A stretch of 64,000 nucleotides of DNA, taken from Candidatus Eiseniibacteriota bacterium. Its GTDB lineage: Bacteria; Joyebacterota; Joyebacteria; Joyebacterales; Joyebacteraceae. Below the pieces are notes generated by a model. The model made no database searches. It saw only the letters and a list, made by a program, of their open reading frames with translations, and was not told the origin of the DNA. Shown here piece after piece: positions 1,820 to 41,024 of this stretch. The position numbers and the translations under genes were made by a program. The stretch's first letter is position 1, and each line of letters opens with the position of its first letter. The stretch spans positions 4,547-68,546 of the forward strand of contig JAUXGN010000007.1 of the NCBI GenBank assembly GCA_030622115.1. Reading direction: 5' to 3'.

Positions 1820-1836
1820 TGTCTCATAGCTCCTTG

Positions 1837-3036: not shown

Positions 3037-3045
3037 GATTCAACC

Positions 3046-4056: not shown

Positions 4057-4064
4057 GCTTCCTC

Positions 4065-4988
4065 CTAGGCCTTGCCTGCCGAACCGAAAAGCTCGATCTT
4101 GGACTTGACGAGTTCCTTCATGCCTTCACGCGTGGCCCCGAGGATCTTCCTCGGATCGAACACCTCGGGGTTCTCGGCCAGTATCTGGCGCGCGTACCCC
4201 GTGAATGCCAGGCGCAAATCCGTGTCGATGTTCACCTTCGCAATTCCAAATGGGATCGCCTCTCGGATGCTCTCGGGCGGCACGCCCTTTGCCCCAGGCA
4301 GCTCCGCTCCGTACTTGCGAGCAAGATCGAGAACCTCCGGAGGGACTGCCGAGGCGCCGTGCAGCACAAGAGGTACTGACACGAGCTCAGCTATCTTCTC
4401 GAGCCGGTCGATGGCCAGCTTCGCATCTCCCTTGAACTTGTATGCGCCGTGTGAAGTTCCTATGGCAATCGCCAGCGAGTCACAGCCGCTTGATTCCACA
4501 AACTCCGCTGCCTGGTTGGGATCGGTCATGGCAGCGTCGCGCTCGTCCACGGCGATCTCGTCTTCCACTCCCATCAACCTGCCGAGTTCGGCTTCGACAC
4601 TGATGCCCATCGGGTGGGCGAGTTCCACAACCGCCCGCGTCTCCTCGATGTTCTCCGCAAACGGAAGGTGCGACCCATCGATCATCACCGATGTCCAGCC
4701 GTTATCTATGCAACCGCGGATGACATCGAGGTCGGTTCCGTGATCGAGGTGCAGAGAGGCCGGCACGCCGGTCTCGTCCGAGAAGTTCCTGACGAGGTCG
4801 TGAAGGTTCTTGTAGCCGGCATACTTGATGGCCGACTGAGATGTGGCGATGATCACGGGCGAGTTGAGTTCAGCTGCAGCTTCAAAGATAGCGGCCGTGA
4901 TCTCAAGGTTGCTCGTGTTGAACGCGCCAACAGCGTAGCCGCCCTGACGAGCGGGCACCATCAGCTCATTGTTGTCCAGAAGTGGCAT
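4065..4988 (-). CDS. fba: fructose-bisphosphate aldolase, class II
   Basis: YAVGAFN N-terminal motif, LHLDHG, and length typical of class II (Zn-dependent) FBA. AGGAG RBS. Confidence 0.9.
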   Translation of the reverse strand: MPLLDNNELMVPARQGGYAVGAFNTSNLEITAAIFEAAAELNSPVIIATSQSAIKYAGYKNLHDLVRNFSDETGVPASLHLDHGTDLDVIRGCIDNGWTSVMIDGSHLPFAENIEETRAVVELAHPMGISVEAELGRLMGVEDEIAVDERDAAMTDPNQAAEFVESSGCDSLAIAIGTSHGAYKFKGDAKLAIDRLEKIAELVSVPLVLHGASAVPPEVLDLARKYGAELPGAKGVPPESIREAIPFGIAKVNIDTDLRLAFTGYARQILAENPEVFDPRKILGATREGMKELVKSKIELFGSAGKA

Positions 4989-4996
4989 GAGAACTC

Positions 4997-6040
4997 CTAT
5001 CCAAAGAATGTCCTGGCGACCTCATAAAGCTCTGAGTCGACCCGCTTGATACACTCCATCGCGTGGGCCATCTCCACTGGAATGACCTTGTCCCCTTGCA
5101 GACTCGTCATCTTGCCGAACTGACCGGCGTGAATGAGGTCGGCCGCGAGAACGCCGAAGCGTGTGCCGAGGACGCGGTCAAACGCAGTTGGTGTTCCGCC
5201 GCGCTGAGTGTATCCAAGCACGGTCACGCGTGTCTCGTATCCCGTGCGCTCTTCGATCACCTTGGCAATCCTGTTCCCGATGCCCCCGAGGCGGACGTGA
5301 CCGAACGCATCCGTCACCTTGGACTGGACAACGAGCTCTGCCTCATCGTCGTCATTCGTGGGATACTCGGCGCCCTCCGAGACAACGACGATACTGAAGT
5401 TCTTGCCCCTGGCATGACGCTTCTGGATGACCTCACAGACCTCATCGATAGTGAAGGGAACCTCGGGTATGAGGATAAGGTCAGCTCCACCTGCGATGCC
5501 CGACTTGACGGCAATCCAACCCGCGCCTCTTCCCATCACCTCGACCACCACGACCCTGTTGTGCGACTCCGCGGTTGTGTGGAGACGGTCGATCGCCTCT
5601 GTAGCGATGTGCACAGCCGTATCGAATCCGAACGTGAAGTCGGTCCCGTTGATGTCATTATCGATCGTCTTTGGCACTCCGACGAGAGGGAACCCATCCT
5701 GCCAGAGGTGGAGTGCGACGCCCAACGTATCCTCGCCACCGACGGCCACGATGCCGTTCAGGTTGAGTTCAGAGAGCGTCTCCTTGACCCGATCTACACC
5801 GTTCTTCTCTTTGTAGACATTCGTCCTGGATGTTCCGAGGATCGTCCCACCGCGAGGGAGAATTCCGGAGACCTCGTCCAGACCGAGAGGTCGGTGGTCG
5901 TTCTTGAGAACTCCAGCCCAACCGTATCTGAACCCGATCACCTCACCACCATACTTGCTGATCGTCCGTCTGACGATCGCCCTGATAACCGCGTTGAGAC
6001 CTGGGCAGTCTCCTCCACCTGTCAGGATTCCTACCTTCAT
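4997..6040 (-). CDS. pfk: 6-phosphofructokinase, predicted pyrophosphate-dependent
   Basis: MKVGILTGGGDCPGLNAV N-terminus. GGEDT occupies the position of the GGDGS motif, and PKTIDNDI has Lys where ATP-PFKs have Gly; Asp/Lys at these two sites are the classic PPi-PFK signatures. ATG at 6040 is preceded by GGAGGGAGCG; the track start at 6052 is a TTG. Confidence 0.85.
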   Translation of the reverse strand: MKVGILTGGGDCPGLNAVIRAIVRRTISKYGGEVIGFRYGWAGVLKNDHRPLGLDEVSGILPRGGTILGTSRTNVYKEKNGVDRVKETLSELNLNGIVAVGGEDTLGVALHLWQDGFPLVGVPKTIDNDINGTDFTFGFDTAVHIATEAIDRLHTTAESHNRVVVVEVMGRGAGWIAVKSGIAGGADLILIPEVPFTIDEVCEVIQKRHARGKNFSIVVVSEGAEYPTNDDDEAELVVQSKVTDAFGHVRLGGIGNRIAKVIEERTGYETRVTVLGYTQRGGTPTAFDRVLGTRFGVLAADLIHAGQFGKMTSLQGDKVIPVEMAHAMECIKRVDSELYEVARTFFG

Positions 6041-6159
6041 CGCTCCCTCCAACCGCTTCCTGAGTGTTTTCTCAGCGAGTCAATCACAATCAAATCAGAA
6101 TAGTCTCGCTCAGGGCCACTGTCAACCCGTTTTGGTCTCTACGTACCCCTGACAGAAGA

Positions 6160-32175: not shown

Positions 32176-33069
32176 TCACTTGGCGGGTCTGAACAGATAC
32201 TGGGCGCCGCCACGGATGGACGCGGGTTCCAGCAGTCCGAAAACAGATCGGCCGACCAGATCCGCCAGTGTCAATCGATGAACCTTTACAGGCTCGACAA
32301 CTCGCGGGTCGCCCTCGATTCCCCCCATTCTTGCGGCCACAAGCTCTGCGTCCTCAAGAGTCCCGAGAAGATCGACGAGGCCCTCCTTGAGTGCCTGTCG
32401 CCCCGAGAAGATGCGTCCATCGGCTATCTCCCGGACGGTCTCAATGTCGAGGGTTCGCTCCATCGCGACAACCTCCATGAACTGCAAGTGAATGTCGTCG
32501 AGCGTATCCTGGAGGAGCTCACGCTCTTCGGGAGTCATCTGCCGGTTCATAGAGCCCAGATCCTTATACTCGCCGCTCTTGACAATTTCAAAGTCTACGC
32601 CGACCTTGTCGAAGAGCTCCTCGAGATTCATGAAGGACATTATCACACCGATGCTGCCGGTCAGAGTTCCTGGATTGGCCACGATCGTGTCGGCAGGACA
32701 GGCCACGTAATATCCTCCAGAGGCTGCCATTGCTCCCATAGACACAACGATCGGCATGCCGCCTTCACGGAGGGCAACGATCTCCTCGTAGATCTCCTGG
32801 GATGCAGCCACCCCTCCCCCGGGGCTATCGATCCTGAGTACGAGCGCTTTCGTGCCCCCGTCGTCCTCGAAGGATCTGAGATCAGCAATGACCTCGCGTG
32901 AATCGGCGATCACCCCCTCTATCCGCACCAAGCCGATGTGGGCGCCGTAGGTCGGAAAGCGCATCTGCTGTCCGAGAAGCGATTCTATCAAGATCATCGT
33001 GATGAGGAATATGACGAGGAGTCCGACAGTGCCGGCCAGCCACCCCCACAGACAGCCCTTCTTGGTCAT
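32176..33069 (-). CDS. sppA: signal peptide peptidase SppA (36K type)
   Basis: N-terminal TM and ClpP/crotonase-fold motifs SPGGGV and MGAMAASGGYY; 297 aa. Confidence 0.85.
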   Translation of the reverse strand: MTKKGCLWGWLAGTVGLLVIFLITMILIESLLGQQMRFPTYGAHIGLVRIEGVIADSREVIADLRSFEDDGGTKALVLRIDSPGGGVAASQEIYEEIVALREGGMPIVVSMGAMAASGGYYVACPADTIVANPGTLTGSIGVIMSFMNLEELFDKVGVDFEIVKSGEYKDLGSMNRQMTPEERELLQDTLDDIHLQFMEVVAMERTLDIETVREIADGRIFSGRQALKEGLVDLLGTLEDAELVAARMGGIEGDPRVVEPVKVHRLTLADLVGRSVFGLLEPASIRGGAQYLFRPAK

Positions 33070-33098: not shown

Positions 33099-33887
33099 TT
33101 ACGTTTGCTTCGTTCGGCGCCTGACTTCCTCAATGACTGCCTTCACCAGTGCATCATTCGTCGCGTCTGCCGGGTCCGTCGAACCGCTTGCCTCATCGCT
33201 TGAGTTGGGACAGACACCGCAATCGTAGCAGATATCGATCGTTCCAGCTATTCCGAGCTTCTCACGGACGCGAACCAGGTCTTCCAGGTTTGCTCTTGAG
33301 AGAGGTGATGCTCCTCCAAGCTGCCGCGCAGTCAGTGAGACCGCGGCGAAATGCTCAACTGTCTCCATGCGATAGTAGGCTTGGTAGATGTCCTCCCCGA
33401 GTGTGAGAACACCGTGATTCTTGAGCAGCATGGCGCTGTGGGTGTCAATGAATCCGCTGATCGACTGTGAAACCTCCTGTGTGGAGGGGGTTGCGTAGTC
33501 CGCCAGCGGTACGCCGCCCAATGACAGGATGACTTCGGGAAGGATGCACTGCGCCAGAGCCACGCCTGCGACCGCAAACCCTGTGGCTTTTGGCGGGTGA
33601 GCGTGCACAACACTTCCGATCTCGGGGCGGCGGTTGTAGGCGAAGAGGTGCATCCCGAGCTCCGATGTCGGTTCGAGGCGCCCAGCCAGTTTCTGTCCCT
33701 TGAGATTGACGACCACCAGATCGTCTGTTCGGAGGAACCCCTTCGACCGCCCCGTCGGTGTGACGACGATGCGATCACGGTCGATCCGAATACTGAGATT
33801 GCCGTCATTCGAGGCGACGTAGCCACGCTCCCAGATTCTCCGTCCTATCTCAACGATCTGTCGCTCGGCCTCAAACTGCGAGAGCAT
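33099..33887 (-). CDS. class II aldolase/adducin-family aldolase (fuculose/rhamnulose-1-phosphate aldolase-like) with C-terminal encapsulation peptide; BMC signature enzyme
   Basis: Zn-ligand motif VVHAHPP and catalytic Glu in EPTSELGMHLFAY. C-terminal extension CYDCGVCP, an acidic/Ser linker, then amphipathic helix ALVKAVIEEVRRR. The ATG at 33887 lies 5 nt after the BMC-P stop. Confidence 0.85.
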   Translation of the reverse strand: MLSQFEAERQIVEIGRRIWERGYVASNDGNLSIRIDRDRIVVTPTGRSKGFLRTDDLVVVNLKGQKLAGRLEPTSELGMHLFAYNRRPEIGSVVHAHPPKATGFAVAGVALAQCILPEVILSLGGVPLADYATPSTQEVSQSISGFIDTHSAMLLKNHGVLTLGEDIYQAYYRMETVEHFAAVSLTARQLGGASPLSRANLEDLVRVREKLGIAGTIDICYDCGVCPNSSDEASGSTDPADATNDALVKAVIEEVRRRTKQT

Positions 33888-33894
33888 TCTTCCC

Positions 33895-34167
33895 CTATGC
33901 CTCCACGTCGATCCTGTCGACGACTCCCACGATGAGCGTGCGAATCGGCGGATCATCAAGTCCGGTGACCAGTGCTGCAGAGGTGCCCTCGTCAACCACC
34001 AGAACAACCTCTCCGACGCCGGCTCCCACCGAGTCGATCGCCAGGAGCGAATCCCCCAACGGCCTTCGCTCGGTGTCGAGTCTCTCTATCACGAGGAGTT
34101 TGCGCCCCTCGAGTGCAGGGTGCTTTATGGTCGATACAACTTCGCCGATGATCTTTGCGAGAAACAA
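33895..34167 (-). CDS. BMC vertex protein (BMC-P, EutN/PduN/CcmL family)
   Basis: MFLAKIIGEVVSTIKHPALEGRKLLVI...AIDSVGAGVGEVVLV...IVGVVDRI shows the canonical BMC-P pattern; 90 aa. Confidence 0.85.
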   Translation of the reverse strand: MFLAKIIGEVVSTIKHPALEGRKLLVIERLDTERRPLGDSLLAIDSVGAGVGEVVLVVDEGTSAALVTGLDDPPIRTLIVGVVDRIDVEA

Positions 34168-34196
34168 GGAGTCGTCCTCATGGTCGGGTCCACGTG

Positions 34197-34454
34197 TCAG
34201 GTGTTGAGGATCGTCACGTCGTCAACGATACCCAGGATAGCTGCATCCACCGGATTGAAACGTTCCTCCAACGCCTTGCACGCCTCGCGGGATTTCACGA
34301 AGTAGATGAGTTGCCCCGGAGCAGCAGAGACCGTGTCGACGGCGACGAGTGGACGTCCCAGCTCCTGTAGATCGTGTGTCAACGGCTGTACCACCAGAAG
34401 GCGGTATCCCTTGAGGGTCTCCACCTTGACCGTGGCCCAGACGCTACCTATCAC
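34197..34454 (-). CDS. BMC vertex protein (BMC-P, EutN/PduN family), paralogue 2
   Basis: MIGSVWATVKVETLKGYRLLVV...AVDTVSAAPGQLIYF...ILGIVDDV; 85 aa. Confidence 0.85.
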   Translation of the reverse strand: MIGSVWATVKVETLKGYRLLVVQPLTHDLQELGRPLVAVDTVSAAPGQLIYFVKSREACKALEERFNPVDAAILGIVDDVTILNT

Positions 34455-34479
34455 TCTCGCCAGATGCAGTGCGCACCCC

Positions 34480-35028
34480 CTAGAAGACCTTGGATTGGAG
34501 ATCCTTGTGCGGGCGCGGGATCACCACGCTCCGGACCAGGTTCCCGCTCTTCTTGAGAAGCAGAAGCGCGGCTTCGATGGCCGCTTCGACTTGGTAGATG
34601 TCGCCCGTCACACAGAAGAACCCCTTTCCCCCGAGTCCCTTGGCCAGGCGAATCTCGATGAGTCTGATGTGCGCGGCCTTCGCGGCCGCATCAGCGGCCG
34701 CAATGGAAGCCGCTGCCGTGAAAGTCTCCACAACCCCGAGCGCGCTCAGTTCGGCGACATCAGTAGCGCCGAGCAATGCCGGAAAGACGTCGGAGTGGAC
34801 GTGCGGGATGAACAGCGTATCCACGACGACGTCTCCCCCGATCTCGATGCCCCGAGCGAGCGACGCTTCCACAGCCGATACATCACCCGCCACCAGCACC
34901 ATGTACTTCCCGGGGCAGATGGCCGTGGCGTCCAGTATCTCGACCGGAGCGCATTTCGCCATCTCGTCGGCGATGCGTATGCCAAGAGCGATGCTTATTG
35001 TCTCTATGAGGGCTATCGCTTCCCTCAA
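34480..35028 (-). CDS. pduT: PduT-like tandem-domain BMC shell protein (BMC-T) with conserved Fe-S-ligand cysteine
   Basis: 182 aa, two BMC domains. AICPGKYMVLVAGDVSAVEASLARG, VVDTLFIPHVHSDVFPALLG and RSVVIPRPHKDL align closely with Salmonella PduT ([25 protein letters not shown]...RSVIPRPHEAM) including Cys38. Confidence 0.85.
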   Translation of the reverse strand: MREAIALIETISIALGIRIADEMAKCAPVEILDATAICPGKYMVLVAGDVSAVEASLARGIEIGGDVVVDTLFIPHVHSDVFPALLGATDVAELSALGVVETFTAAASIAAADAAAKAAHIRLIEIRLAKGLGGKGFFCVTGDIYQVEAAIEAALLLLKKSGNLVRSVVIPRPHKDLQSKVF

Positions 35029-35092
35029 AGCTCCTCCTTCAAGCGGCGTCTCAGACAGATGCAGCGATCGGATCCGACAAGACCCGTCCTCG

Positions 35093-36424
35093 CTAGTTCA
35101 TGGACTCGATGACGACCTCGACGGGAGTGACGGACGTGACTCCTCCATCGATGCTGGCGTGGACACGCGCCCCAATGCCGCCGGGTCGAATCTCTCCGAT
35201 CAGATCGCCCTCCAGTACCCGCTGCCCCACCTCGACGATCGGTTCGGCCGGGTTGCCGACGTGTTGACTCATGGGCAGCACCACGCGTCGGGTCTCTTGC
35301 GTCCAGTCCTTGAGCGGAGCTGAAACGTCATAGTCCGAAAGACCCAGGCGCTGAACGAGTCGAACCGACGGGATCTGTCGGTACTCTCTCACGCCGTCCG
35401 GGCTGAGGTCCGCTCTGGTGTGAGGGTTCTCGATTCCTCTCAGTGACAGCTCCGCCTTGAGAGCGGCCAGAATACGCCGGGGCTGTATTCCCAGCGGACA
35501 GGCGAAGAGCTCACACATGCCGCACTCGCAGCAGAGGTACGCTGATGTGATGTGTGGGTGGTCCATCTCAAGCGTCGAGTACTGTATCGCTCTTATTGTT
35601 CTGTGAGGGGCGAGTTCGTGTCCGAGAAGGGCACGGGGACAGAGCTCGGTGCAGGCCATACACTGGCAGCATGCCGCCCTGGCAAGCCTGAGCACGTGCG
35701 CCTCTGTCGAGGCACGCGACGCAATCAGCGGATGCTCCTCGGAAAGCACGACGATTCCTCCAACTGTCTTCGTGACCGGTTCCGAGAGATTGTCTACTGC
35801 CAGTCGTCCCATCATGGGGCCGCCGACGATCACAGCGGGATTCTCCACGGTTGCTCCACCACTCGCGGCAACGAGATCTCCAATCGGAACACCTATCGGA
35901 ACATCGAAGGTTGCAGGCCTCTTGACGGCGCCCTGCACTGAGACCAATCGTCTGGTCACTGGACGGCCAAGAACGGCTTCTGCCACGTTGGCCAGTGTCA
36001 TCACGTTGTTCACGACCACACCGATGTCGAGCGGGATGCCTCCCTCGGGAATGACACGACCCGTGAGTTCGTAGACCAGGAGATACTCGTCTCCCGCGGG
36101 GTAGACGTCATCCAGAAACTCGAGTTCGATGCCCGGGAAACGACCAAGCTCCGATGTCAGCGCATCTCCAGCGTCGACGTTCTCTCGCTTGACGGCAATC
36201 ACCGCGCGCGATGCTCCAAGCGAATCTCGCATGAGACTCACTCCCTTGAGCACACGCTCGGGAGCGGTCGCCATTATGATTCCGTCCGAGCGGAGCAGTG
36301 GCTCGCACTCGGCCCCATTAGCGATCATCGTATCGGCCCGCCCAAGAGCCTTCACGTGCGTTGGGAAACCGGCTCCGCCGGCCCCTACGACGCCCGCCTT
36401 CTCTATGGCAGTGGCCGTTGACAT
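35093..36424 (-). CDS. pduS: PduS-like RnfC/NuoF-family Fe-S flavoprotein (BMC-associated oxidoreductase)
   Basis: N-terminal NADH/FMN-binding region (GAGGAGFPT), two ferredoxin-type clusters CCQCMACTELCP and CCECGMCELFACP; 443 aa. Its ATG follows the aldehyde dehydrogenase stop by 1 nt. Confidence 0.8.
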   Translation of the reverse strand: MSTATAIEKAGVVGAGGAGFPTHVKALGRADTMIANGAECEPLLRSDGIIMATAPERVLKGVSLMRDSLGASRAVIAVKRENVDAGDALTSELGRFPGIELEFLDDVYPAGDEYLLVYELTGRVIPEGGIPLDIGVVVNNVMTLANVAEAVLGRPVTRRLVSVQGAVKRPATFDVPIGVPIGDLVAASGGATVENPAVIVGGPMMGRLAVDNLSEPVTKTVGGIVVLSEEHPLIASRASTEAHVLRLARAACCQCMACTELCPRALLGHELAPHRTIRAIQYSTLEMDHPHITSAYLCCECGMCELFACPLGIQPRRILAALKAELSLRGIENPHTRADLSPDGVREYRQIPSVRLVQRLGLSDYDVSAPLKDWTQETRRVVLPMSQHVGNPAEPIVEVGQRVLEGDLIGEIRPGGIGARVHASIDGGVTSVTPVEVVIESMN

Positions 36425-36425
36425 T

Positions 36426-37856
36426 CTAGACGATCCTGAAGTAGTCGACGAGCGTGCAGCGGCGCTCTCGCGTGAATGTTCGCGCCGACGTCAATCCCTC
36501 TCCCGTCGGGCTCGCTATGGTGAACGTGGTGAAGCCTTCTCCACCGAACCCAAGACCGGCGAATGAGGGCCCGTTCTTCACGAAGATCGAGCAGTCCATG
36601 ACTCTCGCCATGCGAGAGAGGTGCTCGATGCTCTTCGAATGCATGACCGCCGTATGCCGGTTGCCGCGCTCGACACGCCTCGCGAGATCTATGGCTTCGA
36701 TCGCGGTCTCCACGATTACCATGGGAACGACAGGCATCATCTGTTCAGTCCAGACGAGGGGATGGTCCACGTCGGCCACGAAAAAGGCCAATCTTGTTCC
36801 AGCGGGACAGGAGAGACCTGCCTCCCTGAGGATCACATCCGCATCCCGGCCCACGAGTTCCCGTTTCAGGGGGGAACTGCGTTCTGCCCCCCGGTCTTCC
36901 TCGAGAACCGTCTTCGTCAGACGCTCGATAGCCTGTCCCTTGACCTCTAGTGCGCCCGCCGCAGAAAGCGCCGCGCGCAGTCTGTCTGATACGGCGCGAA
37001 CGGCGATTATCTCCTTCTCAGCAATACAGACGATGTTGTTGTCGAAGCTCGCGCCCGCGATGATGTCCCGCGCCGCCTGGTCAACGTCGGCTGTCTCATC
37101 GACCACCACCGGGGGGTTGCCCGGTCCGGCTGCTATGACCTTCTTCCCGCTCTCCATCGCCGCCCTCACCACCGCTGGGCCGCCCGTCACGACGAGAAGC
37201 TTTATGTCGGAGTGCCGCATGAGCGCTTGTGCCGTGTCTATTGAAGGCTCACTGACTGCGTACAGAAGCGCCCGGGGACCTCCCGCCGCGCTGATGGCGC
37301 GATTCAGAATGTCGATCGTCGTGAGGGAGACAACGCGTGCTCCCGGATGCGGATTGAACACGACAGCATTGCCGCCTGCGATCATGCTGATTGCGTTGTT
37401 GATGATGGTCTCGGATGGGTTGGTCGATGGGGTGATGGATCCGATCACTCCGTACGGCGCACGCTCCACAATCGTAAGCCCGTGGTCTCCAGAGAAAGCC
37501 ACGGGCCTCAGATCTTCCGTGCCCGGAGTGCGTTCTGCGACGAGGACGTTCTTCTGTTCCTTGTCCTCGATGCGCCCGAGCCCTGTCTCTTCTACCGCCT
37601 GCTCCGCGAGCGACCGCGCGTTCTCGAGAGCGGCCAAGCGCATTGCCTGAATGATCCCCTTGCGGAGTTCGAGCGAACTCCCGATCAGCTCGCGCTGGCT
37701 CGTCCACGCAGCCCGAACAGCGTCATCCATCGCCTCGAGAATCCCGCGACCGTCAAAGGCCGGAGGCGCCTGTCTCGGCGTCGCTTCCCCAGTGGATACC
37801 AATTCACGGACGACACGCTCGACTACCGTCCTGATGGCAAGCTCTTCATTCGCCAT
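36426..37856 (-). CDS. CoA-acylating aldehyde dehydrogenase (PduP/EutE family) with N-terminal encapsulation peptide
   Basis: ALDH fold with catalytic Cys in NNIVCIAEKE. N-terminal amphipathic helix EELAIRTVVERVVRELV, then linker STGEATPRQAPPAFDG; 476 aa. Confidence 0.9.
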   Translation of the reverse strand: MANEELAIRTVVERVVRELVSTGEATPRQAPPAFDGRGILEAMDDAVRAAWTSQRELIGSSLELRKGIIQAMRLAALENARSLAEQAVEETGLGRIEDKEQKNVLVAERTPGTEDLRPVAFSGDHGLTIVERAPYGVIGSITPSTNPSETIINNAISMIAGGNAVVFNPHPGARVVSLTTIDILNRAISAAGGPRALLYAVSEPSIDTAQALMRHSDIKLLVVTGGPAVVRAAMESGKKVIAAGPGNPPVVVDETADVDQAARDIIAGASFDNNIVCIAEKEIIAVRAVSDRLRAALSAAGALEVKGQAIERLTKTVLEEDRGAERSSPLKRELVGRDADVILREAGLSCPAGTRLAFFVADVDHPLVWTEQMMPVVPMVIVETAIEAIDLARRVERGNRHTAVMHSKSIEHLSRMARVMDCSIFVKNGPSFAGLGFGGEGFTTFTIASPTGEGLTSARTFTRERRCTLVDYFRIV

Positions 37857-37875
37857 GTGTCTGCCGATCCTCTAT

Positions 37876-38163
37876 TCACTTGTCGTAGAGGAGCTTCCCG
37901 CCGACCTCGATGGAGTCGACGATAGCCATGATGACGGCATCGGCAGGTCTGTCCTTCGTCAGCGAGGTCTGGCGCGCCGAGCTTCCGCTCGCGTAGAGAA
38001 CGATCTCTCCCTCACCAGCACCGACTGCGTCGATCGCAACGACGAACGCTCCCGTCTCGCTGCCATCCAGTTCGACCTGTTTCACGATCAAGAGCTTCGT
38101 GCCTGTAAGCTTGTCGTCCTTCTGGCTGGCGACGATTGTCCCGACGACCTTGCCGATAGTCAT
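37876..38163 (-). CDS. BMC vertex protein (BMC-P), paralogue 3
   Basis: ATG at 38163 with AGAGGTGG RBS gives MTIGKVVGTIVASQKDDKLTGTKLLIV...AIDAVGAGEGEIVLY...IMAIVDSI. The longer track ORF adds 21 non-conserved residues. Confidence 0.8.
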   Translation of the reverse strand: MTIGKVVGTIVASQKDDKLTGTKLLIVKQVELDGSETGAFVVAIDAVGAGEGEIVLYASGSSARQTSLTKDRPADAVIMAIVDSIEVGGKLLYDK

Positions 38164-38276
38164 AGTCCACCTCTGCCGTCCGTGTAGCACCACACAACCC
38201 AGACCAAGGCCTGTGGGCGGCAACAAATCAGTTCGCTCACACCCGGTCTGTGCGTCGTCCTGACTGGTGATGGTCT

Positions 38277-38573
38277 CTATTTCGCCTTCGATTTCGCTGT
38301 CTTGCCGATCGGCAGCGCATCCTCAAGACTCGAGTGAGGCTGTGGTATGACGTGCGTGGAGATAAGCTCGCCCACCTTGCTGGCAGTTGCCATTCCGGCA
38401 TCCACCGCTGCGCGCACCGCAGCGACGTCGCCGCGAACGATGGCTGTCACGTACCCCCCGCCGACCTTCTCATAGCCGACGAGCCTCACCTTGGCTGCTT
38501 TCACCATGGCATCGGATGCTTCGACCATTCCGATAAAACCCCTGGTCTCGATCATTCCGAGGGCTTCGCCCAT
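38277..38573 (-). CDS. BMC hexamer shell protein (BMC-H, PduA/EutM family)
   Basis: [57 protein letters not shown] is the canonical BMC domain; 98 aa with a K-rich C-terminal tail. Confidence 0.9.
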
Positions 38574-38636
38574 TTCACCCTCCCGCGAACGGATCAGATC
38601 TCATGAAGACGCTTGAGGCCGCTATCCTACGCGGCC

Positions 38637-38933
38637 CTACAGCATCGTTCCTTCCAGCATCTCGTGCGGCGCTGGTATGACATGATACGAAACAAGTTCA
38701 CCGACCTTGCCGGCAGCCGCAGCCCCGGCGGCGACAGCAGCCTTCACTGCGCCCACATCCCCTCGGACGATAGCGGTAACGTACCCGCCACCGATTCTCT
38801 CGTACTTCGTCAGTGTGACGTTGGCGGTCTTGACCATTGCGTCAGCGGCCTCTACGAGGCCAACCACTCCCTTGGTCTCAACCATTCCAAGCGCAAGTCC
38901 CGGCAATCGTTTCACCCCCTCGCTTAAGTCCAT
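38637..38933 (-). CDS. BMC hexamer shell protein (BMC-H), paralogue 2
   Basis: [55 protein letters not shown] at 38906 preceded by GAGGGGGTG would give the canonical N-terminus [13 protein letters not shown]; the ATG at 38933 is an alternative. Confidence 0.85.
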
Positions 38934-38937
38934 TCAC

Positions 38938-39603
38938 TCAGGAATGGAGAATCTCCACGGTCGTTGGCAATCCTACGCCGGCCGCATTTGCATTGTCGGT
39001 ATCAATGTGAAACTCGAGAAGCGCGCTCTTGGAGACACGGATCAGGATCTTCTCGAGCACCAAGGATGCTGATCCCGGGAACCGGACCCTGACAAGATCT
39101 CCATCCGTCACCCTGTGGATCTCAGCATCACGCTCAGTCATATGAATGTGACGCATCGCACGGATCGCCACATCACGCAGATGAACCGTTCCGGCCGGTC
39201 CCACAAGCGTGAGCGTCTCGCTTCCCACCAGATCTCCGGATCGACGTATAGGCGGTTCGATTCCCAATCTGACGGCATCGGTGGCGGAGACCTCGACCTG
39301 CGTGTATGTACGCAACGGTCCCAGTACACGGACACGCTCGATTGCACGCATTGACCGGCCCACGAGCGTTACGGTCTGCTCGGATGCAAACTCCCCCGGC
39401 TGTCCCAGATCGGTGCGCCGCGTGAGTTCAAACCCCTCACCGTACAGTCTGTCCAGTACGCCGCGCGAGATGTGGATGTGCCTTGCCGAGACCGAAACCG
39501 GGATCGTCGCCGTGGCCGTGACCTGATCTTGACCGGATCCGCCCAGCCTACGGATGACTTCCTGTGCGATTCTTTCGACTTGGTCCAATCTTCCTCCCTG
39601 CAC
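38938..39603 (-). CDS. pduL: PduL-type phosphotransacylase with N-terminal encapsulation peptide
   Basis: Two PduL repeats with the ARHIH motif (VSARHIHIS...). N-terminal amphipathic helix LDQVERIAQEVIRRL plus a GGSGQ linker; 221 aa. First gene of the BMC operon. Confidence 0.85.
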   Translation of the reverse strand: MQGGRLDQVERIAQEVIRRLGGSGQDQVTATATIPVSVSARHIHISRGVLDRLYGEGFELTRRTDLGQPGEFASEQTVTLVGRSMRAIERVRVLGPLRTYTQVEVSATDAVRLGIEPPIRRSGDLVGSETLTLVGPAGTVHLRDVAIRAMRHIHMTERDAEIHRVTDGDLVRVRFPGSASLVLEKILIRVSKSALLEFHIDTDNANAAGVGLPTTVEILHS

Positions 39604-39725
39604 CGAGCCTGGTGAAAGGCGGAATGAACGAGGTTTACACCTAGTCGGCTCGGCAGCTGACCGAAGTCGAGGGCAGTCTAGCAGAGGGGGGATGACGTGT
39701 CAACGGAAACGGGGCAAACGAGTTG

Positions 39726-39757
39726 CGGCCTCCTCCGCAAAGCGGAGGAGGCCGCGA
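39726..39757. promoter_or_regulatory. near-perfect 31-nt palindrome (GCGGCCTCCTCCGC aaa GCGGAGGAGGCCGC) about 120 nt upstream of the BMC operon start
   Basis: 14-bp perfect inverted repeat read directly from sequence, in the 488-nt intergenic region between the glycan-locus GT2 gene and pduL. Could be an operator for a dimeric regulator or a 5'-UTR/terminator hairpin; no U-tract follows on either strand. Confidence 0.35.
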
Positions 39758-40091
39758 TTGAATATGCGTTCCCCGATGTAACGTGCAACAGGTGGCGTAC
39801 GACTCATTCTCGGGTTTGGGGATCAGCCCACGACCTGGCGATGCTCACGTATACCCCAGGGAACGCGATTACAGTATTCAGGTAGAAGCATGGAGCGTGC
39901 CACAGTCATTCCGAACAGCCAGACCATCTGGCGTATCGGCTGCAATGCCTGCGCATTGGGAGTTCTCGCGCGAGGTTTCATGGGAACGCAGGAGTCAGAG
40001 GTCTTGTTACACAGTAGTGTCGCCCGCTCGTAACGGGCCGCGGCGCCGCAATAGCGGATGTTGCGGGGAGTGATCCCTCGCGATGGTGATC

Positions 40092-41024
40092 CTAGAGGGT
40101 GAGGGCTCGCCTGTAGCGGCAAGCGATCAGGTAGGTCAGTGCCGGAACCGAGAGCCGACCAAGATGCACGGCGTTCGCGGCGGCCCGCACGAGCAGGTAG
40201 CCGAGTCGATTGGTGGCAAGGAAGATCAGGAGCTTCTTCGAACGAAGTGACAACGAGTCGCTTTCAGCCGGAGGCATGAGAAGATCGATGGAGAGTTCTG
40301 ACGCGCGTTCCGGGTGGATCCTGAGGAGCGCTCGGAGCGCCGCCACTGCCTCCTCCCGCTTCCCGAGGATATCGTCAAGGCTCTGGCCATGCAGATGATA
40401 TGCCACGGCCTCACCGCAGTACCAGGTGGCCAATCCGAGACTGTCCTCGAGACGGAAGGCGATCTCTGTATCCTCGAATCCGTAGTTGGTGAATGATTCA
40501 TTGAAGAGGCCCACGTCGAGCAGCGCCTTTCGTGGGACCGACGAATTGTTGGTCACGAAGTAGCGTGCAGGCGCCCTTGAGCCGGGCCGGAGCTTATGGA
40601 CACCCATGCGGTCGAGGTAGGCATAGACTGTAGACAACCCTAGCTCCGGGGCCTGCAGTGCGCTTCCGATCACCATCGACTCACCGTGGGATTCCTGAAA
40701 TGCTACATGCTGTGCGATGAGGTCGGGTTTCGAACGCATATCGTCATCGACGAATAAGACGAGATCGCCACTCGCCTTCCGGATGGCGGTGTTGCGAGCA
40801 GCCGCGCGGCCCTTGTTTGTCGCGTGACGAACGCTCACGAGTTTGAACGGTGTGTCGAGACCTTCGATGAAGGCGGGCGTCTCATCATGGGAGCAGTCGT
40901 CCACGACCACCACCTCGATGAGAGCGGAGGGATAGGACTGCTCGGAGAGAGCCCGTAGGGTCTCCCTGAGGAAAGACAGCCGGTTGTAGGTCGGTATGAT
41001 CACACTCACGGATCTGTCCGGCAT
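40092..41024 (-). CDS. glycosyltransferase family 2
   Basis: ATG at 41024 gives MPDRSVSVIIPTYNR...VVDDCSHDET with a DxD-type motif (GT-A fold). It starts 1 nt after the upstream gene stop. Confidence 0.75.
   Translation of the reverse strand: MPDRSVSVIIPTYNRLSFLRETLRALSEQSYPSALIEVVVVDDCSHDETPAFIEGLDTPFKLVSVRHATNKGRAAARNTAIRKASGDLVLFVDDDMRSKPDLIAQHVAFQESHGESMVIGSALQAPELGLSTVYAYLDRMGVHKLRPGSRAPARYFVTNNSSVPRKALLDVGLFNESFTNYGFEDTEIAFRLEDSLGLATWYCGEAVAYHLHGQSLDDILGKREEAVAALRALLRIHPERASELSIDLLMPPAESDSLSLRSKKLLIFLATNRLGYLLVRAAANAVHLGRLSVPALTYLIACRYRRALTL

What the first reader, a model, noticed from the sequence alone, without database searches (positions are those of the whole stretch)
33099..39757. 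Compact aldolase-type bacterial microcompartment operon (PVM-like) in a high-GC, probably candidate-phylum genome
Ten contiguous minus-strand genes (pduL, 2 BMC-H, BMC-P, CoA-acylating aldehyde dehydrogenase, pduS-like, pduT-like, 2 BMC-P, class II aldolase) with 1-65 nt gaps form a complete metabolosome. The three BMC-P paralogues plus a fuculose/rhamnulose-phosphate-type class II aldolase are the hallmark of the Planctomycetes/Verrucomicrobia-type (PVM) BMC, which processes lactaldehyde from L-fucose/L-rhamnose. This locus differs from the planctomycete PVM set as I recall it: it also encodes a PduT-like Fe-S BMC-T and a PduS-like flavoprotein, and has no alcohol dehydrogenase, no acetate/propionate kinase and no DeoR regulator nearby.
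Basis: partly seen in the sequence, partly recalled or inferred. Interest (0 to 1): 0.85.

Follow-up and report, generated by a model that had tools for sequence, protein, structure and literature searches.

The report
Aldolase microcompartment operon with upstream RNA
This is a real ten-gene operon for a protein-shelled bacterial organelle that splits a sugar phosphate and detoxifies the resulting aldehyde; it is a lineage-specific variant of catalogued types rather than the fucose/rhamnose "PVM" type, and it sits behind a previously undescribed conserved RNA.

Summary
Ten contiguous minus-strand genes (33099-39603) all pass Pfam cut-offs: PduL, 2 BMC-H, BMC-P, acylating AldDH, PduS-like, PduT-like, 2 BMC-P, class II aldolase.

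The same cassette recurs in at least 15 fetched loci from Ca. Effluviviacota/Eisenbacteria-like genomes and metagenomes.

The "PVM-like" reading is only partly right:
- A BMC-P triplet with a pfam00596 aldolase is shared by many catalogued types.
- The nearest AldDH relatives and the gene order are SPU2- and MIC7-like. The aldolase occupies the slot where those loci carry RpiB+DeoC.
- The enzyme set matches MIC4 minus acetate kinase.
- PduS/PduT without an alcohol dehydrogenase is the published MNdh/BMC-T^SE NAD+ recycling module.

The aldolase reaches no FucA or RhaD equivalog cut-off, and no 6-deoxyhexose genes lie in the 64 kb window. The substrate is therefore unresolved.

Two new features turned up. 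The aldolase tail carries a conserved CxxCGxC motif. A sigma54-promoter-linked, covariation-supported ~105-nt RNA (39766-39866) lies upstream. In metagenomes, 37 of 44 testable copies of this RNA sit just 5' of related BMC loci. The other seven include copies upstream of S8 protease or oligopeptide transporter genes.

The parts
39886..39902 (-). sigma54-type -24/-12 promoter element (TGGCACgctccATGCTT) in front of the upstream RNA
   Evidence: Seen directly in the sequence. A GG[CT]A[CT]-N5/6-[ATC]TGC element lies within 110 nt upstream of the RNA in 58 of 76 metagenomic copies. It is canonical in L088 (TGGCATgtcggTTGCA) and L018. Function is inferred, not shown.
39766..39866 (-). Conserved structured RNA core of about 101 nt with four helices and an invariant GGGCUGAUC(C/U)CC loop. 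It is a candidate sigma54-dependent sRNA or leader linked to this BMC family.
   Evidence: Near-invariant block in 11 syntenic loci. Covariance model R1 scores 121.9 bits here. It also hits just 5' of the BMC genes in L088, L018/L019, L021 and L057, and in none of 65 other AldDH loci. On 77 distinct sequences, 94.5% of cells pair, with 177 double-change cells against 52.7 +/- 8.6 in shuffles. No Rfam 15 family reaches threshold.
39725..39755 (-). GC-rich hairpin after the RNA, terminator-like (GCGGCCUCCUCCGC-UUUG-CGGAGGAGGCCGC)
   Evidence: Folds at -34.6 kcal/mol. The sequence varies but a hairpin is kept in the syntenic loci. In L018 and L088 the RNA's own closing helix is followed by a U-run instead.
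39675..39703 (-). sigma70-like promoter (TTGACA-17-TAGACT with TG) for the BMC operon
   Evidence: Found by the consensus scan. The total number of sites found is not above chance. However, the site is conserved in position in most of the syntenic loci aligned (degenerate in L004). Comparable sites follow the RNA in L018, L021 and L057.
38938..39603 (-). PduL-type phosphotransacylase (PTAC) with an N-terminal encapsulation-peptide-like helix. The alternative start is TTG 39588, behind a GGGAGG Shine-Dalgarno.
   Evidence: Pfam PTAC 214.6 bits. NCBIfam PRK15070 scores 224.9 against a cut-off of 209. Aligned to PDB 5CUO, the RHIH x2, QVEVS and xHID metal-site motifs are conserved. The N-terminal segment LDQVERIAQEVIRRL plus a variable linker is conserved in orthologues.
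38637..38933 (-). BMC-H shell hexamer paralogue 1 (KTAN / PAPH interface motifs)
   Evidence: Pfam BMC 101.4 bits. Sequence.
38277..38573 (-). BMC-H shell hexamer paralogue 2 (KAAK / PQPH motifs, conserved basic C-terminal tail)
   Evidence: Pfam BMC 104.5 bits. The closest natural (non-engineered) solved structure is Haliangium ochraceum BMC-H HO-5815, at 135.6 bits. The tail LEDxLPIGKTxKxK is conserved.
37876..38163 (-). BMC-P pentamer 1, the triplet member placed after the BMC-H genes
   Evidence: Pfam EutN_CcmL 101.3 bits. The closest solved structure is the H. ochraceum BMC-P of the 5V74 shell, at 110 bits against 72 or fewer for other hits. The ATG start is conserved in orthologues.
36426..37856 (-). 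CoA-acylating aldehyde dehydrogenase (EutE/PduP family) with an N-terminal encapsulation peptide
   Evidence: NCBIfam PRK15398 scores 655 against a cut-off of 403. PDB 5JFL scores 449 bits. The catalytic Cys277 sits in the NNIVC motif. The N-terminal segment EELAIRTVVERVVREL plus a Pro/Ala linker is conserved.
35093..36424 (-). PduS homologue, i.e. MNdh (metabolosome NADH dehydrogenase)
   Evidence: Pfam domain order is Complex1_51K, SLBB, Fer4_17, then a C-terminal RnfC_N. This is the circular permutation described for MNdh. The GAGGAGFPT motif is at residue 14, and two Cys4-Pro motifs are at 252-263 and 298-310. NCBIfam rnfC subfamily scores 254.8 against a cut-off of 246.
34480..35028 (-). 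PduT-type tandem BMC-T (BMC-T^SE) with the pore cysteine
   Evidence: Two BMC domains. Best PDB hits are 3NWG and PduT 3PAC/3N79, with ICPGKY aligned to PduT ICPGKF. Cys38 lies in the CPGK motif. Across 65 loci the pore Cys tracks PduS: 14 of 16 loci with PduS have it, against 9 of 49 without PduS.
34197..34454 (-). BMC-P pentamer 2, first of the adjacent pair
   Evidence: Pfam EutN_CcmL 83 bits. The P-P pair is kept in this position in SPU-like and MIC7-like relatives.
33895..34167 (-). BMC-P pentamer 3, second of the adjacent pair
   Evidence: Pfam EutN_CcmL 91.4 bits. Synteny shown.
33099..33887 (-). Class II (metal-dependent) aldolase-family enzyme, the candidate signature enzyme. Its C-terminal extension runs: CxxCGxC motif, variable linker, encapsulation-peptide-like helix.
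   Evidence: Pfam Aldolase_II 158 bits. Zn ligands His95/97/158 and Glu76 are invariant in 119 homologues. It scores below every NCBIfam equivalog cut-off. The AlphaFold model has pLDDT 87. FucA, DrdA (6BTD/6BTG) and YgbL give equally good fold matches, with TM about 0.9. C220/C223/C226 are 92-97% conserved, and the motif is present in 109 of 121 sequences. A helix at residues 239-260 is predicted.

Best explanation
The locus encodes a catabolic bacterial microcompartment (metabolosome). It is built on the shell-and-AldDH chassis shared by SPU, MIC7 and HO-type organelles, and a class II aldolase has taken the signature-enzyme slot.

Proposed mechanism:
1. A ketose-1-phosphate enters the shell, which is made of 2 BMC-H, a BMC-P triplet and 1 BMC-T.
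2. The encapsulated Zn-dependent aldolase cleaves it to DHAP plus a short aldehyde.
3. The encapsulated CoA-acylating AldDH oxidises the aldehyde to an acyl-CoA and makes NADH.
4. Encapsulated PduL recycles CoA by forming an acyl-phosphate. This leaves the shell for substrate-level phosphorylation by an enzyme encoded elsewhere.
5. NAD+ is regenerated by the PduS homologue (MNdh), not by an alcohol dehydrogenase. MNdh passes electrons through its two [4Fe-4S] clusters to the [4Fe-4S] cluster at the pore of the PduT-type trimer (BMC-T^SE), and from there to a cytosolic acceptor.

What is shown here: gene identities, catalytic and cluster-binding motifs, encapsulation-peptide-like helices, and conserved synteny.

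What is inferred: encapsulation, the flux scheme and the direction of electron flow. These rest on published work on homologous systems.

What is unresolved: the identity of the sugar phosphate and therefore of the aldehyde (lactaldehyde, acetaldehyde or glycolaldehyde).

The operon has its own sigma70-like promoter. It is preceded by a separately terminated, sigma54-promoter-linked structured RNA that travels with this BMC family and probably takes part in its regulation.
For: Gene identities and motifs:
- All ten genes pass family cut-offs.
- Catalytic and cofactor motifs are intact: aldolase His95/97/158 and Glu76; AldDH Cys277; PduL metal-site motifs; PduS FMN motif and two Cys4 motifs; PduT Cys38 in CPGK.

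Encapsulation signals:
[quoted passage not shown] They are conserved across orthologues.
- This matches the encapsulation-peptide placement the catalogue reports for MUF2/MUF3 aldolase loci.

Conservation:
- The cassette is conserved in at least 15 fetched loci and in two different genomic contexts.

Relation to SPU-type loci:
- In the NJ tree, the next group beyond the sister Eisenbacteria pair (L018/L019) is H-P-AldDH-T-P-P loci, which carry RpiB+DeoC after the P-P pair.
- The closest solved shell proteins are those of the H. ochraceum BMC.

NAD+ recycling module:
- MNdh/BMC-T^SE NAD+ recycling is supported experimentally for a Clostridium botulinum homologue. It occurs in 361 loci that lack an AlcDH.
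- In this data set the pore cysteine tracks PduS presence.
Against: - No experiment exists for this lineage.
- The aldolase matches no characterised subfamily. OtnC decarboxylase is nominally the best NCBIfam hit, at 119 bits against a cut-off of 250, so C-C cleavage to an aldehyde is an assumption.
- No kinase, isomerase, transporter, acyl-phosphate kinase or regulator is linked in the 64 kb window or in any syntenic locus.
- MIC7-like relatives work without PduL, PduS or a linked aldolase. The aldolase could therefore be an accessory rather than the defining enzyme.
- The AldDH tree is a neighbour-joining tree without support values.
- The physiological electron acceptor of BMC-T^SE is unknown even in the model system.
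Confidence: 0.75

Rival explanations
1. This is a functional equivalent of the PVM organelle. The aldolase cleaves L-fuculose-1-P or L-rhamnulose-1-P, and the compartment handles L-lactaldehyde from fucose or rhamnose. The kinase and isomerase would be encoded elsewhere in the genome.
For: - pfam00596 aldolases in the characterised PVM and GRM5 compartments act on these substrates.
- The catalogue suggests similar substrates for MUF2 on the same grounds.
- E. coli FucA is among the best fold matches, with TM 0.90.
- The enzyme set aldolase + AldDH + PTAC equals the PVM core.
Against: - The aldolase scores 73 bits against the 400-bit fucA cut-off and 61 against the 170-bit rhaD cut-off. It scores no better on FucA than on OtnC, ribulose-1-P aldolase or DrdA.
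- An invariant Pro117-Glu118 appears to replace FucA Tyr113, although the alignment there is ambiguous.
- No fucK/fucI/rhaA/rhaB-like gene, transporter or DeoR regulator lies in the 64 kb window or in any syntenic locus.
- AldDH relatives are SPU-like. No Planctomycetes or Verrucomicrobia locus appears among the best 80 of 585 genome hits.
- The published survey of the phylum lists GH3, 13, 23, 57, 97 and 109 and PL1, 12 and 15 as prominent families. None of these is a fucosidase or rhamnosidase family.
- The linked RNA also precedes protease and peptide-transporter genes.
Confidence: 0.3
2. The compartment is a functional cousin of the SPU organelles. The aldolase cleaves a pentulose or deoxypentulose 1-phosphate. 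Candidates are ribulose-1-P from nucleoside breakdown, giving glycolaldehyde, or 5-deoxyribulose-1-P or methylthioribulose-1-P from SAM by-products, giving acetaldehyde or methylthioacetaldehyde. The organelle would serve detrital, nucleoside-linked catabolism.
For: - The AldDH lineage and gene order are SPU-like, with the aldolase in the RpiB+DeoC slot.
- The ribulose-1-P aldolase model is the second-best NCBIfam hit, at 117 bits.
- The DrdA structures 6BTD/6BTG are among the top sequence and fold hits.
- The linked RNA co-occurs with secreted proteases and an oligopeptide transporter, which suggests a scavenging regulon.
Against: - All these aldolase similarities are sub-threshold and indistinguishable from FucA-level similarity.
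- No nucleoside phosphorylase, kinase or isomerase is linked.
- Unlike SPU loci, this locus has no RpiB or DeoC.
- A compartment for a low-flux salvage pathway would be unusual (my inference).
Confidence: 0.25
3. The class II aldolase-family protein is not the aldehyde-generating enzyme. It would be a decarboxylase, epimerase or dehydratase of the family, or a redox-linked accessory acting through its Cys3 motif. The true signature enzyme of this BMC family would be encoded elsewhere, as the catalogue assumes for MIC7.
For: - The best NCBIfam hit is a decarboxylase (OtnC), and the best PDB sequence hit is YgbL.
- MIC7-like sister loci lack a linked aldolase, as do most metagenomic RNA-linked loci.
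- The conserved CxxCGxC motif is unexplained.
Against: - The aldolase carries a conserved encapsulation-peptide-like tail.
- It is the terminal gene of a tightly packed, conserved operon.
- pfam00596 proteins recur as the only candidate signature enzyme in many BMC types.
- The FucA-type catalytic Glu and Zn ligands are all present.
Confidence: 0.12

Closest known systems
MIC7 BMC type (Sutter et al. 2021 catalogue; Ca. Latescibacteria and Ca. Eisenbacteria, 6 loci)
   Same: - Related candidate-phylum lineage.
- Two BMC-H, a BMC-P triplet split as 1 + 2, and a BMC-T^s after the AldDH.
- AldDH with an N-terminal encapsulation peptide and SPU-like affinities.
- Two of the six catalogued loci have a pore-Cys BMC-T next to PduS.
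- MIC7-like loci L021 and L057 carry the same upstream RNA.
   Different: [quoted passage not shown] This locus adds PduL and an encapsulation-tagged class II aldolase.
- In the NJ tree its AldDH groups with L018/L019 and SPU2-like loci, not with L021/L057.
- Satellite BMC-T^dp could not be checked.
MIC4 BMC type (2021 catalogue). It includes the Melioribacter roseus locus that was called 'PVM-like' in 2014.
   Same: AldDH + PTAC + pfam00596 aldolase, a BMC-P triplet, and PduS next to a pore-Cys PduT.
   Different: - MIC4 also has an acetate kinase.
- It occurs in other phyla.
- Its AldDH is reported as close to MUF2/MUF3. Here the AldDH is SPU-like, and the Firmicutes aldolase loci in my set branch elsewhere.
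SPU2-type sugar-phosphate utilisation BMC (Bacteroidetes, Spirochaetes, Atribacteria)
   Same: - After the Eisenbacteria loci, the nearest AldDH relatives, at 53-58% identity.
- Same backbone order H-P-AldDH-(PduS)-T-P-P-[signature enzymes].
   Different: SPU loci carry RpiB (PF02502) and DeoC (PF01791) after the P-P pair. Here a class II aldolase is in that position, and PduL leads the operon.
PVM BMC of Planctomycetes/Verrucomicrobia (Erbilgin et al. 2014)
   Same: - Class II aldolase signature enzyme with AldDH and PTAC.
[quoted passage not shown]
   Different: - PVM is restricted to Planctomycetes and Verrucomicrobia.
- It has no BMC-T in the main locus. Only 20 PVM loci carry MNdh/BMC-T^SE, 18 of them in satellite loci.
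- It has a lactate/malate-DH-type NAD+ recycler, an acetate kinase and a DeoR regulator.
- No PVM-lineage AldDH appears among the closest relatives.
MNdh / BMC-T^SE electron-export module (Sutter et al. 2024, PNAS)
   Same: - Four-domain PduS homologue with a C-terminal permuted RnfC_N domain.
- Adjacent BMC-T with the CP(G/S)K motif.
- The locus has an AldDH but no AlcDH.
   Different: None detected. This is an ordinary member of that module. Its acceptor is unknown here, as it is elsewhere.

Membership tests
Metabolosome (catabolic BMC) paradigm | BMC-H, BMC-P and optionally BMC-T shell genes clustered with an acylating AldDH, a PTAC and a signature enzyme, plus a means of NAD+ recycling | tested here: met
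   All components pass Pfam/NCBIfam cut-offs. NAD+ recycling is assigned to the PduS/PduT pair rather than to an AlcDH.
PVM (2021 catalogue) | Found only in Planctomycetes and Verrucomicrobia | tested here: not met
   The closest loci are Ca. Effluviviacota/Eisenbacteria MAGs.
PVM (2021 catalogue) | [quoted passage not shown] | tested here: not met
   A PduT-type BMC-T is encoded inside the operon. [quoted passage not shown]
PVM (2021 catalogue) | pfam00596 class II aldolase as signature enzyme | tested here: met
   Aldolase_II 158 bits. The feature is shared with ACI, HO, MIC3/4, MUF2/3 and GRM5, so it does not discriminate.
PVM (2021 catalogue) | AldDH belongs to the PVM clade of the BMC AldDH tree | tested here: inconclusive
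   No Planctomycetes or Verrucomicrobia locus is among the best 80 of 585 genome hits, and the nearest relatives are SPU-like. No PVM reference sequence could be obtained for a direct comparison.
PVM (Axen 2014 description) | Ancillary DeoR regulator, acetate kinase and lactate/malate-DH-type NAD+ recycler | tested here: not met
   None is present in the 64 kb window.
PVMlike (2021 catalogue) | [quoted passage not shown] | tested here: not met
   The taxon differs. AldDH neighbours are SPU-like and Eisenbacteria loci.
MIC7 (2021 catalogue) | [quoted passage not shown] | tested here: met
   Composition, pore Cys, EP. Colour-clade assignment of the BMC-P proteins needs the catalogue HMMs and was not done.
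MIC7 (2021 catalogue) | AldDH is the only enzyme besides shell proteins | tested here: not met
   PduL, PduS and a class II aldolase are in the operon.
MIC4 (2021 catalogue) | AldDH + PTAC + pfam00596 aldolase + pfam00871 acetate kinase, a P triplet, and PduS/PduT with pore Cys | tested here: not met
   All are present except the acetate kinase, which is absent from the operon and from the 64 kb window.
Any catalogue type (BMC Caller assignment) | Best-scoring type-specific shell and enzyme HMMs of the catalogue | not testable with these tools
   The HMM library is held only as truncated supplementary text and could not be run.
MNdh / BMC-T^SE module | PF01512 + PF10531 + Fe-S dicluster + C-terminal PF13375; adjacent BMC-T with CP(G/S)K; co-occurrence with AldDH | tested here: met
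   Domain order, definition, CPGK at Cys38. The genes are 64 nt apart.
L-fuculose-phosphate aldolase (FucA) / rhamnulose-1-phosphate aldolase (RhaD) equivalogs | Score at or above the curated NCBIfam equivalog cut-off | tested here: not met
   TIGR01086 scores 72.9 against 400; NF005302 105.5 against 264; NF040649 114.5 against 250; rhaD NF002963 60.9 against 170.
Class II aldolase/adducin superfamily, metal-dependent catalytic type | Three His metal ligands and the catalytic Glu of FucA | tested here: met
   His95, His97, His158 and Glu76 are invariant in 119 homologues and align with E. coli FucA, YgbL and RhaD.

The most novel reading that the evidence does not exclude
The ~105-nt structured RNA upstream of the operon, linked to a sigma54-type promoter, is a new class of regulatory RNA. 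It could be a riboswitch-like leader or a dedicated sRNA.

It would co-ordinate a whole uncharacterised BMC family (MIC7-like loci and this aldolase cassette) with secreted S8 proteases and oligopeptide transporters. If so, the organelle belongs to a detritus or peptide-scavenging programme, and its substrate is not fucose or rhamnose.

The conserved CxxCGxC motif on the encapsulated aldolase would bind a metal or Fe-S centre that ties the signature enzyme to the MNdh/BMC-T^SE redox chain.
Probability: 0.3. Interest if true: 0.8.

Novelty: new variant of a known kind. Interest (0 to 1): 0.5.

Why it matters
The operon adds a well-populated subtype to the list of aldolase-type metabolosomes. 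More than 100 distinct aldolase sequences at 50% identity or above were found in metagenomes.

[quoted passage not shown] It is also a clean natural example of a compartment that depends entirely on MNdh for NAD+ recycling. It gives the BMC reported in Ca. Effluviviacota in 2024, with unknown substrate, a candidate signature enzyme.

The more valuable lead is the upstream RNA. The functions of MIC7-like and related BMCs are an open question in the field. A conserved RNA with a sigma54-type promoter that marks these loci gives a concrete experimental handle on when and why these organelles are made. The handles include ligand screening, RNA-seq and regulon definition, helped by the fact that the RNA also precedes protease and peptide-transporter genes.

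If the RNA turns out to be a lineage-specific sRNA of little consequence, the locus is an ordinary new subtype.

Tried and rejected
1. I tried to obtain PVM, GRM5 and MIC4 reference sequences for direct trees. The single genome-contig scan returned none among its best 80. The representative search gives no names. The listing of cluster members returned only generic names without taxa. Placement relative to PVM is therefore indirect.
2. I tried to assign the catalogue type from the supplementary trees and HMMs of Sutter 2021. The text is truncated, the MIC7 'dullTeal' entries were not in the parts I read, and the HMMs cannot be run.
3. I looked for fucose/rhamnose genes or KOs in the supplementary tables of the Ca. 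Effluviviacota paper. Nothing was found, but the stored file is cut, so this is uninformative.
4. I tried to narrow the aldolase specificity with NCBIfam, PDB sequence search, AlphaFold and Foldseek. FucA, DrdA, YgbL/OtnC and ribulose-1-P aldolase are all equally distant.
5. I looked at genomic context as a substrate clue. The flanks are cell-envelope glycosyltransferases on one side and SppA/PilZ/FadL/TPR on the other. They are conserved by vertical synteny and are uninformative. The second context (L088/L152) has ProRS downstream.
6. I searched Rfam for a riboswitch in the 5' region. There were no hits at gathering score, only sub-threshold 6S and P17 matches, which I reject as chance.
7. 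I ran an RNA-RNA duplex prediction between the RNA and the operon's 5' UTR. It gave an implausible long duplex and was discarded.
8. I considered a 99-aa ORF at 39823-40122 as an eleventh gene. I rejected it because it overlaps the conserved RNA and promoter, and the conservation pattern there is nucleotide-level with compensatory pairs.

Full report
**Observation.** Each passes the Pfam gathering threshold for the family proposed: PTAC/PduL, two single-domain BMC proteins, three EutN/CcmL proteins, an Aldedh-family protein, a tandem-BMC protein, a Complex1_51K/SLBB/Fer4/RnfC_N protein and an Aldolase_II protein. Gaps between genes are 1-64 nt. The H2-P1 gap is the exception, at 50 or 113 nt depending on the P1 start. 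NCBIfam confirms the AldDH (PRK15398, 655 bits against a cut-off of 403), PduL (225 against 209) and the RnfC-subfamily nature of the PduS homologue (255 against 246). Pfam scans of essentially every other gene in the window found no sugar kinase, isomerase, DeoR regulator, alcohol dehydrogenase or acetate kinase. Upstream lies a polysaccharide and glycosyltransferase cluster. Downstream lie sppA, a PilZ gene, a FadL-like gene and a TPR gene. A glycolysis cluster sits at 1046-6052.

**Lineage and conservation.** The AldDH has homologues at 91%, 89% and 66-72% identity in MAG contigs (L001-L007). All carry the same ten genes in the same order, and their flanking genes are also syntenic. One of these MAGs is named Candidatus Effluviviaceae. 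NCBI labels others 'Candidatus Eisenbacteria'. A 2024 paper on Ca. Effluviviacota (formerly VGIX01; GC 59-70%; seeps, hydrothermal sediments, Lake Tanganyika) reports BMC genes with a PduP-like AldDH in that phylum. It states that the substrate is unknown and never mentions an aldolase. Aldolase homologues at 50% identity or above number more than 100 distinct sequences. Their contigs show the same cassette in lake and other metagenomes (L082/L083, L089, L090). L088 and L152 carry it in a different genomic context. The operon is therefore a conserved, widespread cassette.

**Components.**
- *Aldolase.* It keeps the three His metal ligands and the catalytic Glu of FucA (His95/97/158, Glu76), invariant in 119 homologues. 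It falls below every NCBIfam equivalog cut-off. The best hits are OtnC (119 bits against a cut-off of 250), ribulose-1-P aldolase (117 against 300) and archaeal FucA (114 against 250). fucA TIGR01086 scores 73 against 400, and rhaD scores 61 against 170. PDB sequence hits and Foldseek matches of an AlphaFold model (pLDDT 87) are equally good for YgbL/OtnC, the 5-deoxyribulose-1-P aldolase DrdA and FucA. An invariant Pro117-Glu118 seems to occupy the position of FucA Tyr113, where RhaD has Glu and AraD has Asp. This equivalence rests on my reading of an ambiguous alignment and on remembered literature.
- *Encapsulation signals.* The aldolase C-terminus, the AldDH N-terminus and the PduL N-terminus each carry a conserved amphipathic helix, set off from the catalytic domain by a poorly conserved linker. 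This is the usual signature of encapsulation peptides. It is also the placement the catalogue reports for MUF2/MUF3.
- *PduL.* It keeps the metal-site motifs of the solved R. palustris enzyme.
- *PduS homologue.* It has the NuoF-type GAGGAGFPT motif, two Cys4-Pro motifs and a C-terminal RnfC_N domain.
- *BMC-T.* It aligns with PduT and keeps Cys38 in ICPGKY.
- *Shell relatives.* The closest natural solved relatives of BMC-H and BMC-P1 are the Haliangium ochraceum shell proteins.

**Classification.** The 2021 catalogue restricts PVM to Planctomycetes and Verrucomicrobia, with 2 BMC-H + 3 BMC-P. It defines PVMlike as a Firmicutes type related to GRM5. BMC-P triplets and pfam00596 aldolases occur in many other types. 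Among those types:
- MIC4 has AldDH + PTAC + aldolase + acetate kinase with a P triplet and PduS/PduT.
- MIC7 occurs in Latescibacteria and Eisenbacteria. It has two BMC-H, a P triplet, a BMC-T^s (with pore Cys when next to PduS) and 'only an AldDh'.
- The Melioribacter locus called PVM-like in 2014 is MIC4 in 2021.

In my set of 80 genome loci, the window clade is sister to two Eisenbacteria loci that carry PduL and PduS (L018/L019). Next come Spirochaetes, Bacteroidales and Atribacteria loci (NJ tree without support values). In those loci the conserved P-P pair is followed by RpiB and DeoC, the SPU signature enzymes. Here the class II aldolase occupies that slot. No Planctomycetes or Verrucomicrobia locus was among the best 80 of 585 hits. 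I conclude that the locus is a variant built on the SPU/MIC7 chassis with the enzyme content of MIC4 minus acetate kinase. It is not a member of PVM or PVMlike as now defined. Formal typing needs the catalogue HMMs, which I could not run.

**Mechanism.** The absence of an alcohol dehydrogenase is explained by published work. The PduS homologue is the metabolosome NADH dehydrogenase MNdh, which has a circularly permuted RnfC_N domain. The adjacent PduT-type trimer is BMC-T^SE, with a CP(G/S)K cluster motif. Together they regenerate NAD+ and export electrons. They occur in 2,172 BMC loci, of which 361 lack an AlcDH, and in 20 PVM loci. In my loci the pore cysteine tracks PduS: 14 of 16 loci with PduS have it, against 9 of 49 without. 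The proposed pathway has four steps:
1. A ketose-1-phosphate is cleaved to DHAP plus an aldehyde by the aldolase.
2. The aldehyde is converted to an acyl-CoA by the AldDH.
3. The acyl-CoA is converted to an acyl-phosphate by PduL.
4. NADH is converted back to NAD+ by MNdh/BMC-T^SE.

Gene identities and motifs are shown here. Encapsulation and fluxes are inferred.

**Substrate.** Lactaldehyde from fucose or rhamnose remains possible by analogy with PVM. Nothing here supports it specifically, and several observations weaken it:
- the equivalog scores are sub-threshold;
- no pathway genes are linked in any of the syntenic loci;
- the AldDH has SPU-like affinities;
- the phylum's published prominent CAZyme families do not include fucosidase or rhamnosidase families;
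- the company kept by the upstream RNA, described next, points elsewhere.

Glycolaldehyde- or acetaldehyde-yielding pentulose or deoxypentulose phosphates are equally compatible. I could not scan the rest of any genome.

**Upstream RNA.** Aligning the 5' intergenic regions showed a block far more conserved than the proteins. Its layout is:
- a sigma54-type -24/-12 element at 39886-39902;
- a ~101-nt core at 39766-39866;
- a GC-rich hairpin at 39725-39755;
- a sigma70-like promoter at 39675-39703.

A covariance model built from 11 syntenic copies also hit directly 5' of the first BMC gene, on the same strand, in L088, L018/L019, L021 and L057. These represent other contexts and lineages, including MIC7-like loci. 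It hit none of 65 other AldDH loci. A degenerate 22-base pattern found at least 120 metagenomic stretches. Of the 44 with at least 900 nt downstream, 37 have BMC genes starting about 100-1400 nt downstream on the same strand. In the exceptions I annotated, the RNA precedes Peptidase_S8/FlgD_ig proteases (L103, L156, L163) or an OPT oligopeptide transporter (L115).

On 77 distinct sequences, 94.5% of cells pair. There are 177 double-change cells against 52.7 +/- 8.6 in shuffles and at most 36 in slid controls, and all seven pairs of helix 3 covary. The caveat is that the alignment is fitted to the model. A sigma54-type element lies upstream in 58 of 76 copies. In L018 and L088 the closing helix is followed directly by a U-run. 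Other subgroups have a separate terminator or a second long hairpin. Rfam 15 has no family for it. Whether it is a stand-alone sRNA or a leader that permits read-through into the operon is open. The conserved sigma70-like promoters downstream favour a separate transcription unit. The short distance to some protease genes favours a leader.

**Other new feature.** Between the aldolase domain and its tail helix lies a C220-x2-C223-G-x-C226 motif. It is conserved in 109 of 121 close homologues and is also present in a Ruminiclostridium BMC aldolase. It is absent from an ACI-type aldolase and from the Chloroflexi BMC-linked aldolases I examined. AlphaFold gives this region low confidence as a monomer. 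A metal or Fe-S site is plausible but untested.

**Verdict.** It is wrong on family membership, and the features it lists as distinguishing are already explained by published work. The operon is a new lineage-specific variant of a known kind. The substrate inference is unproven and somewhat weakened. The upstream RNA and the aldolase Cys motif are the elements that would interest a specialist.

Noticed in passing
window 39725-39902 (minus strand); also L001-L007, L018/L019, L021, L057, L082/L083, L088-L090, L091-L170: An unannotated structured RNA lies upstream of the BMC operon. The core is at 39766-39866, with a sigma54-type promoter at 39886-39902 and a terminator-like hairpin at 39725-39755. 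It has strong covariation and no Rfam family. In metagenomes, 37 of 44 testable copies sit just 5' of related BMC loci.
   Followed up: partly
L103:878-994, L156:3473-3583, L163:560-670, L115:4880-4995: The same RNA motif also precedes, on the same strand, Peptidase_S8 proteases with a FlgD_ig domain and an OPT oligopeptide transporter. In L103 and L115 a small 86-aa ORF comes first. This suggests a regulon wider than the BMC, linked to protein and peptide scavenging.
   Followed up: partly
window 33209-33229 (aldolase residues 220-226): A conserved CxxCGxC motif lies between the aldolase domain and its encapsulation-peptide-like tail. It is present in 109 of 121 close homologues and in about 15% of the 150 more distant representatives. 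The motif suggests a metal or Fe-S site. I found no description of it.
   Followed up: partly
window 33532-33537 (aldolase Pro117-Glu118): An invariant Pro-Glu appears to take the place of the FucA Tyr113 position, where RhaD and AraD have an acidic residue. This marks these BMC aldolases as a subfamily distinct from FucA. The alignment around this site is ambiguous.
   Followed up: partly
window 32176-33069 (minus strand): An sppA-type signal peptide peptidase (Peptidase_S49) starts only 29 nt after the aldolase stop, on the same strand, with no terminator-like site between them. It follows the cassette in all Effluviviacota-type loci, but not in L088 or L152, where ProRS follows. It may be co-transcribed with the operon.
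   Followed up: partly
window 39586-39603: The PduL start is ambiguous. The ORF's first start codon is GTG 39603. TTG 39588 is preceded by a GGGAGG Shine-Dalgarno and would put the encapsulation-peptide-like helix at the very N-terminus.
   Followed up: no
window 38277-38330 (BMC-H paralogue 2, C-terminal tail): A conserved basic tail (LEDxLPIGKTxKxKxK) sits on one of the two BMC-H paralogues. Both paralogues depart from the standard interface motifs (KAAK/PQPH and KTAN/PAPH).
   Followed up: no
window 1046-6052 (minus strand): A contiguous glycolysis cluster is present: PFK, class II fructose-bisphosphate aldolase, GAPDH, PGK and TPI. It could take up the DHAP released by the compartment, but it is 27 kb away and is probably unrelated.
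   Followed up: no
window 40092-63999 (minus strand): A long cell-envelope polysaccharide cluster lies upstream. It includes GT2, GT4 and GT9 glycosyltransferases, a DegT aminotransferase, a Polysacc_synt_2 dehydratase, a FemAB-like acetyltransferase, a YfhO-like protein and phosphodiesterases. The part that could be checked, the glycosyltransferase, FemAB-like and polysaccharide-synthesis genes nearest the operon, is syntenic with the BMC cassette throughout the lineage.
   Followed up: no
L081:1479-2546 (protein P0232): The Vicinamibacterales ACI-type aldolase is about 50% identical to the window's aldolase. It contains an apparent internal duplication of about 60 residues of the C-terminal part of the aldolase domain. 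This could be real or an assembly artefact.
   Followed up: no
L063 (JAEOTM010000160.1, labelled Candidatus Hodarchaeota archaeon): A PduL/AldDH/PduS/BMC locus sits on a contig attributed to an Asgard archaeon. It probably reflects a bacterial contig mis-binned into the MAG.
   Followed up: no
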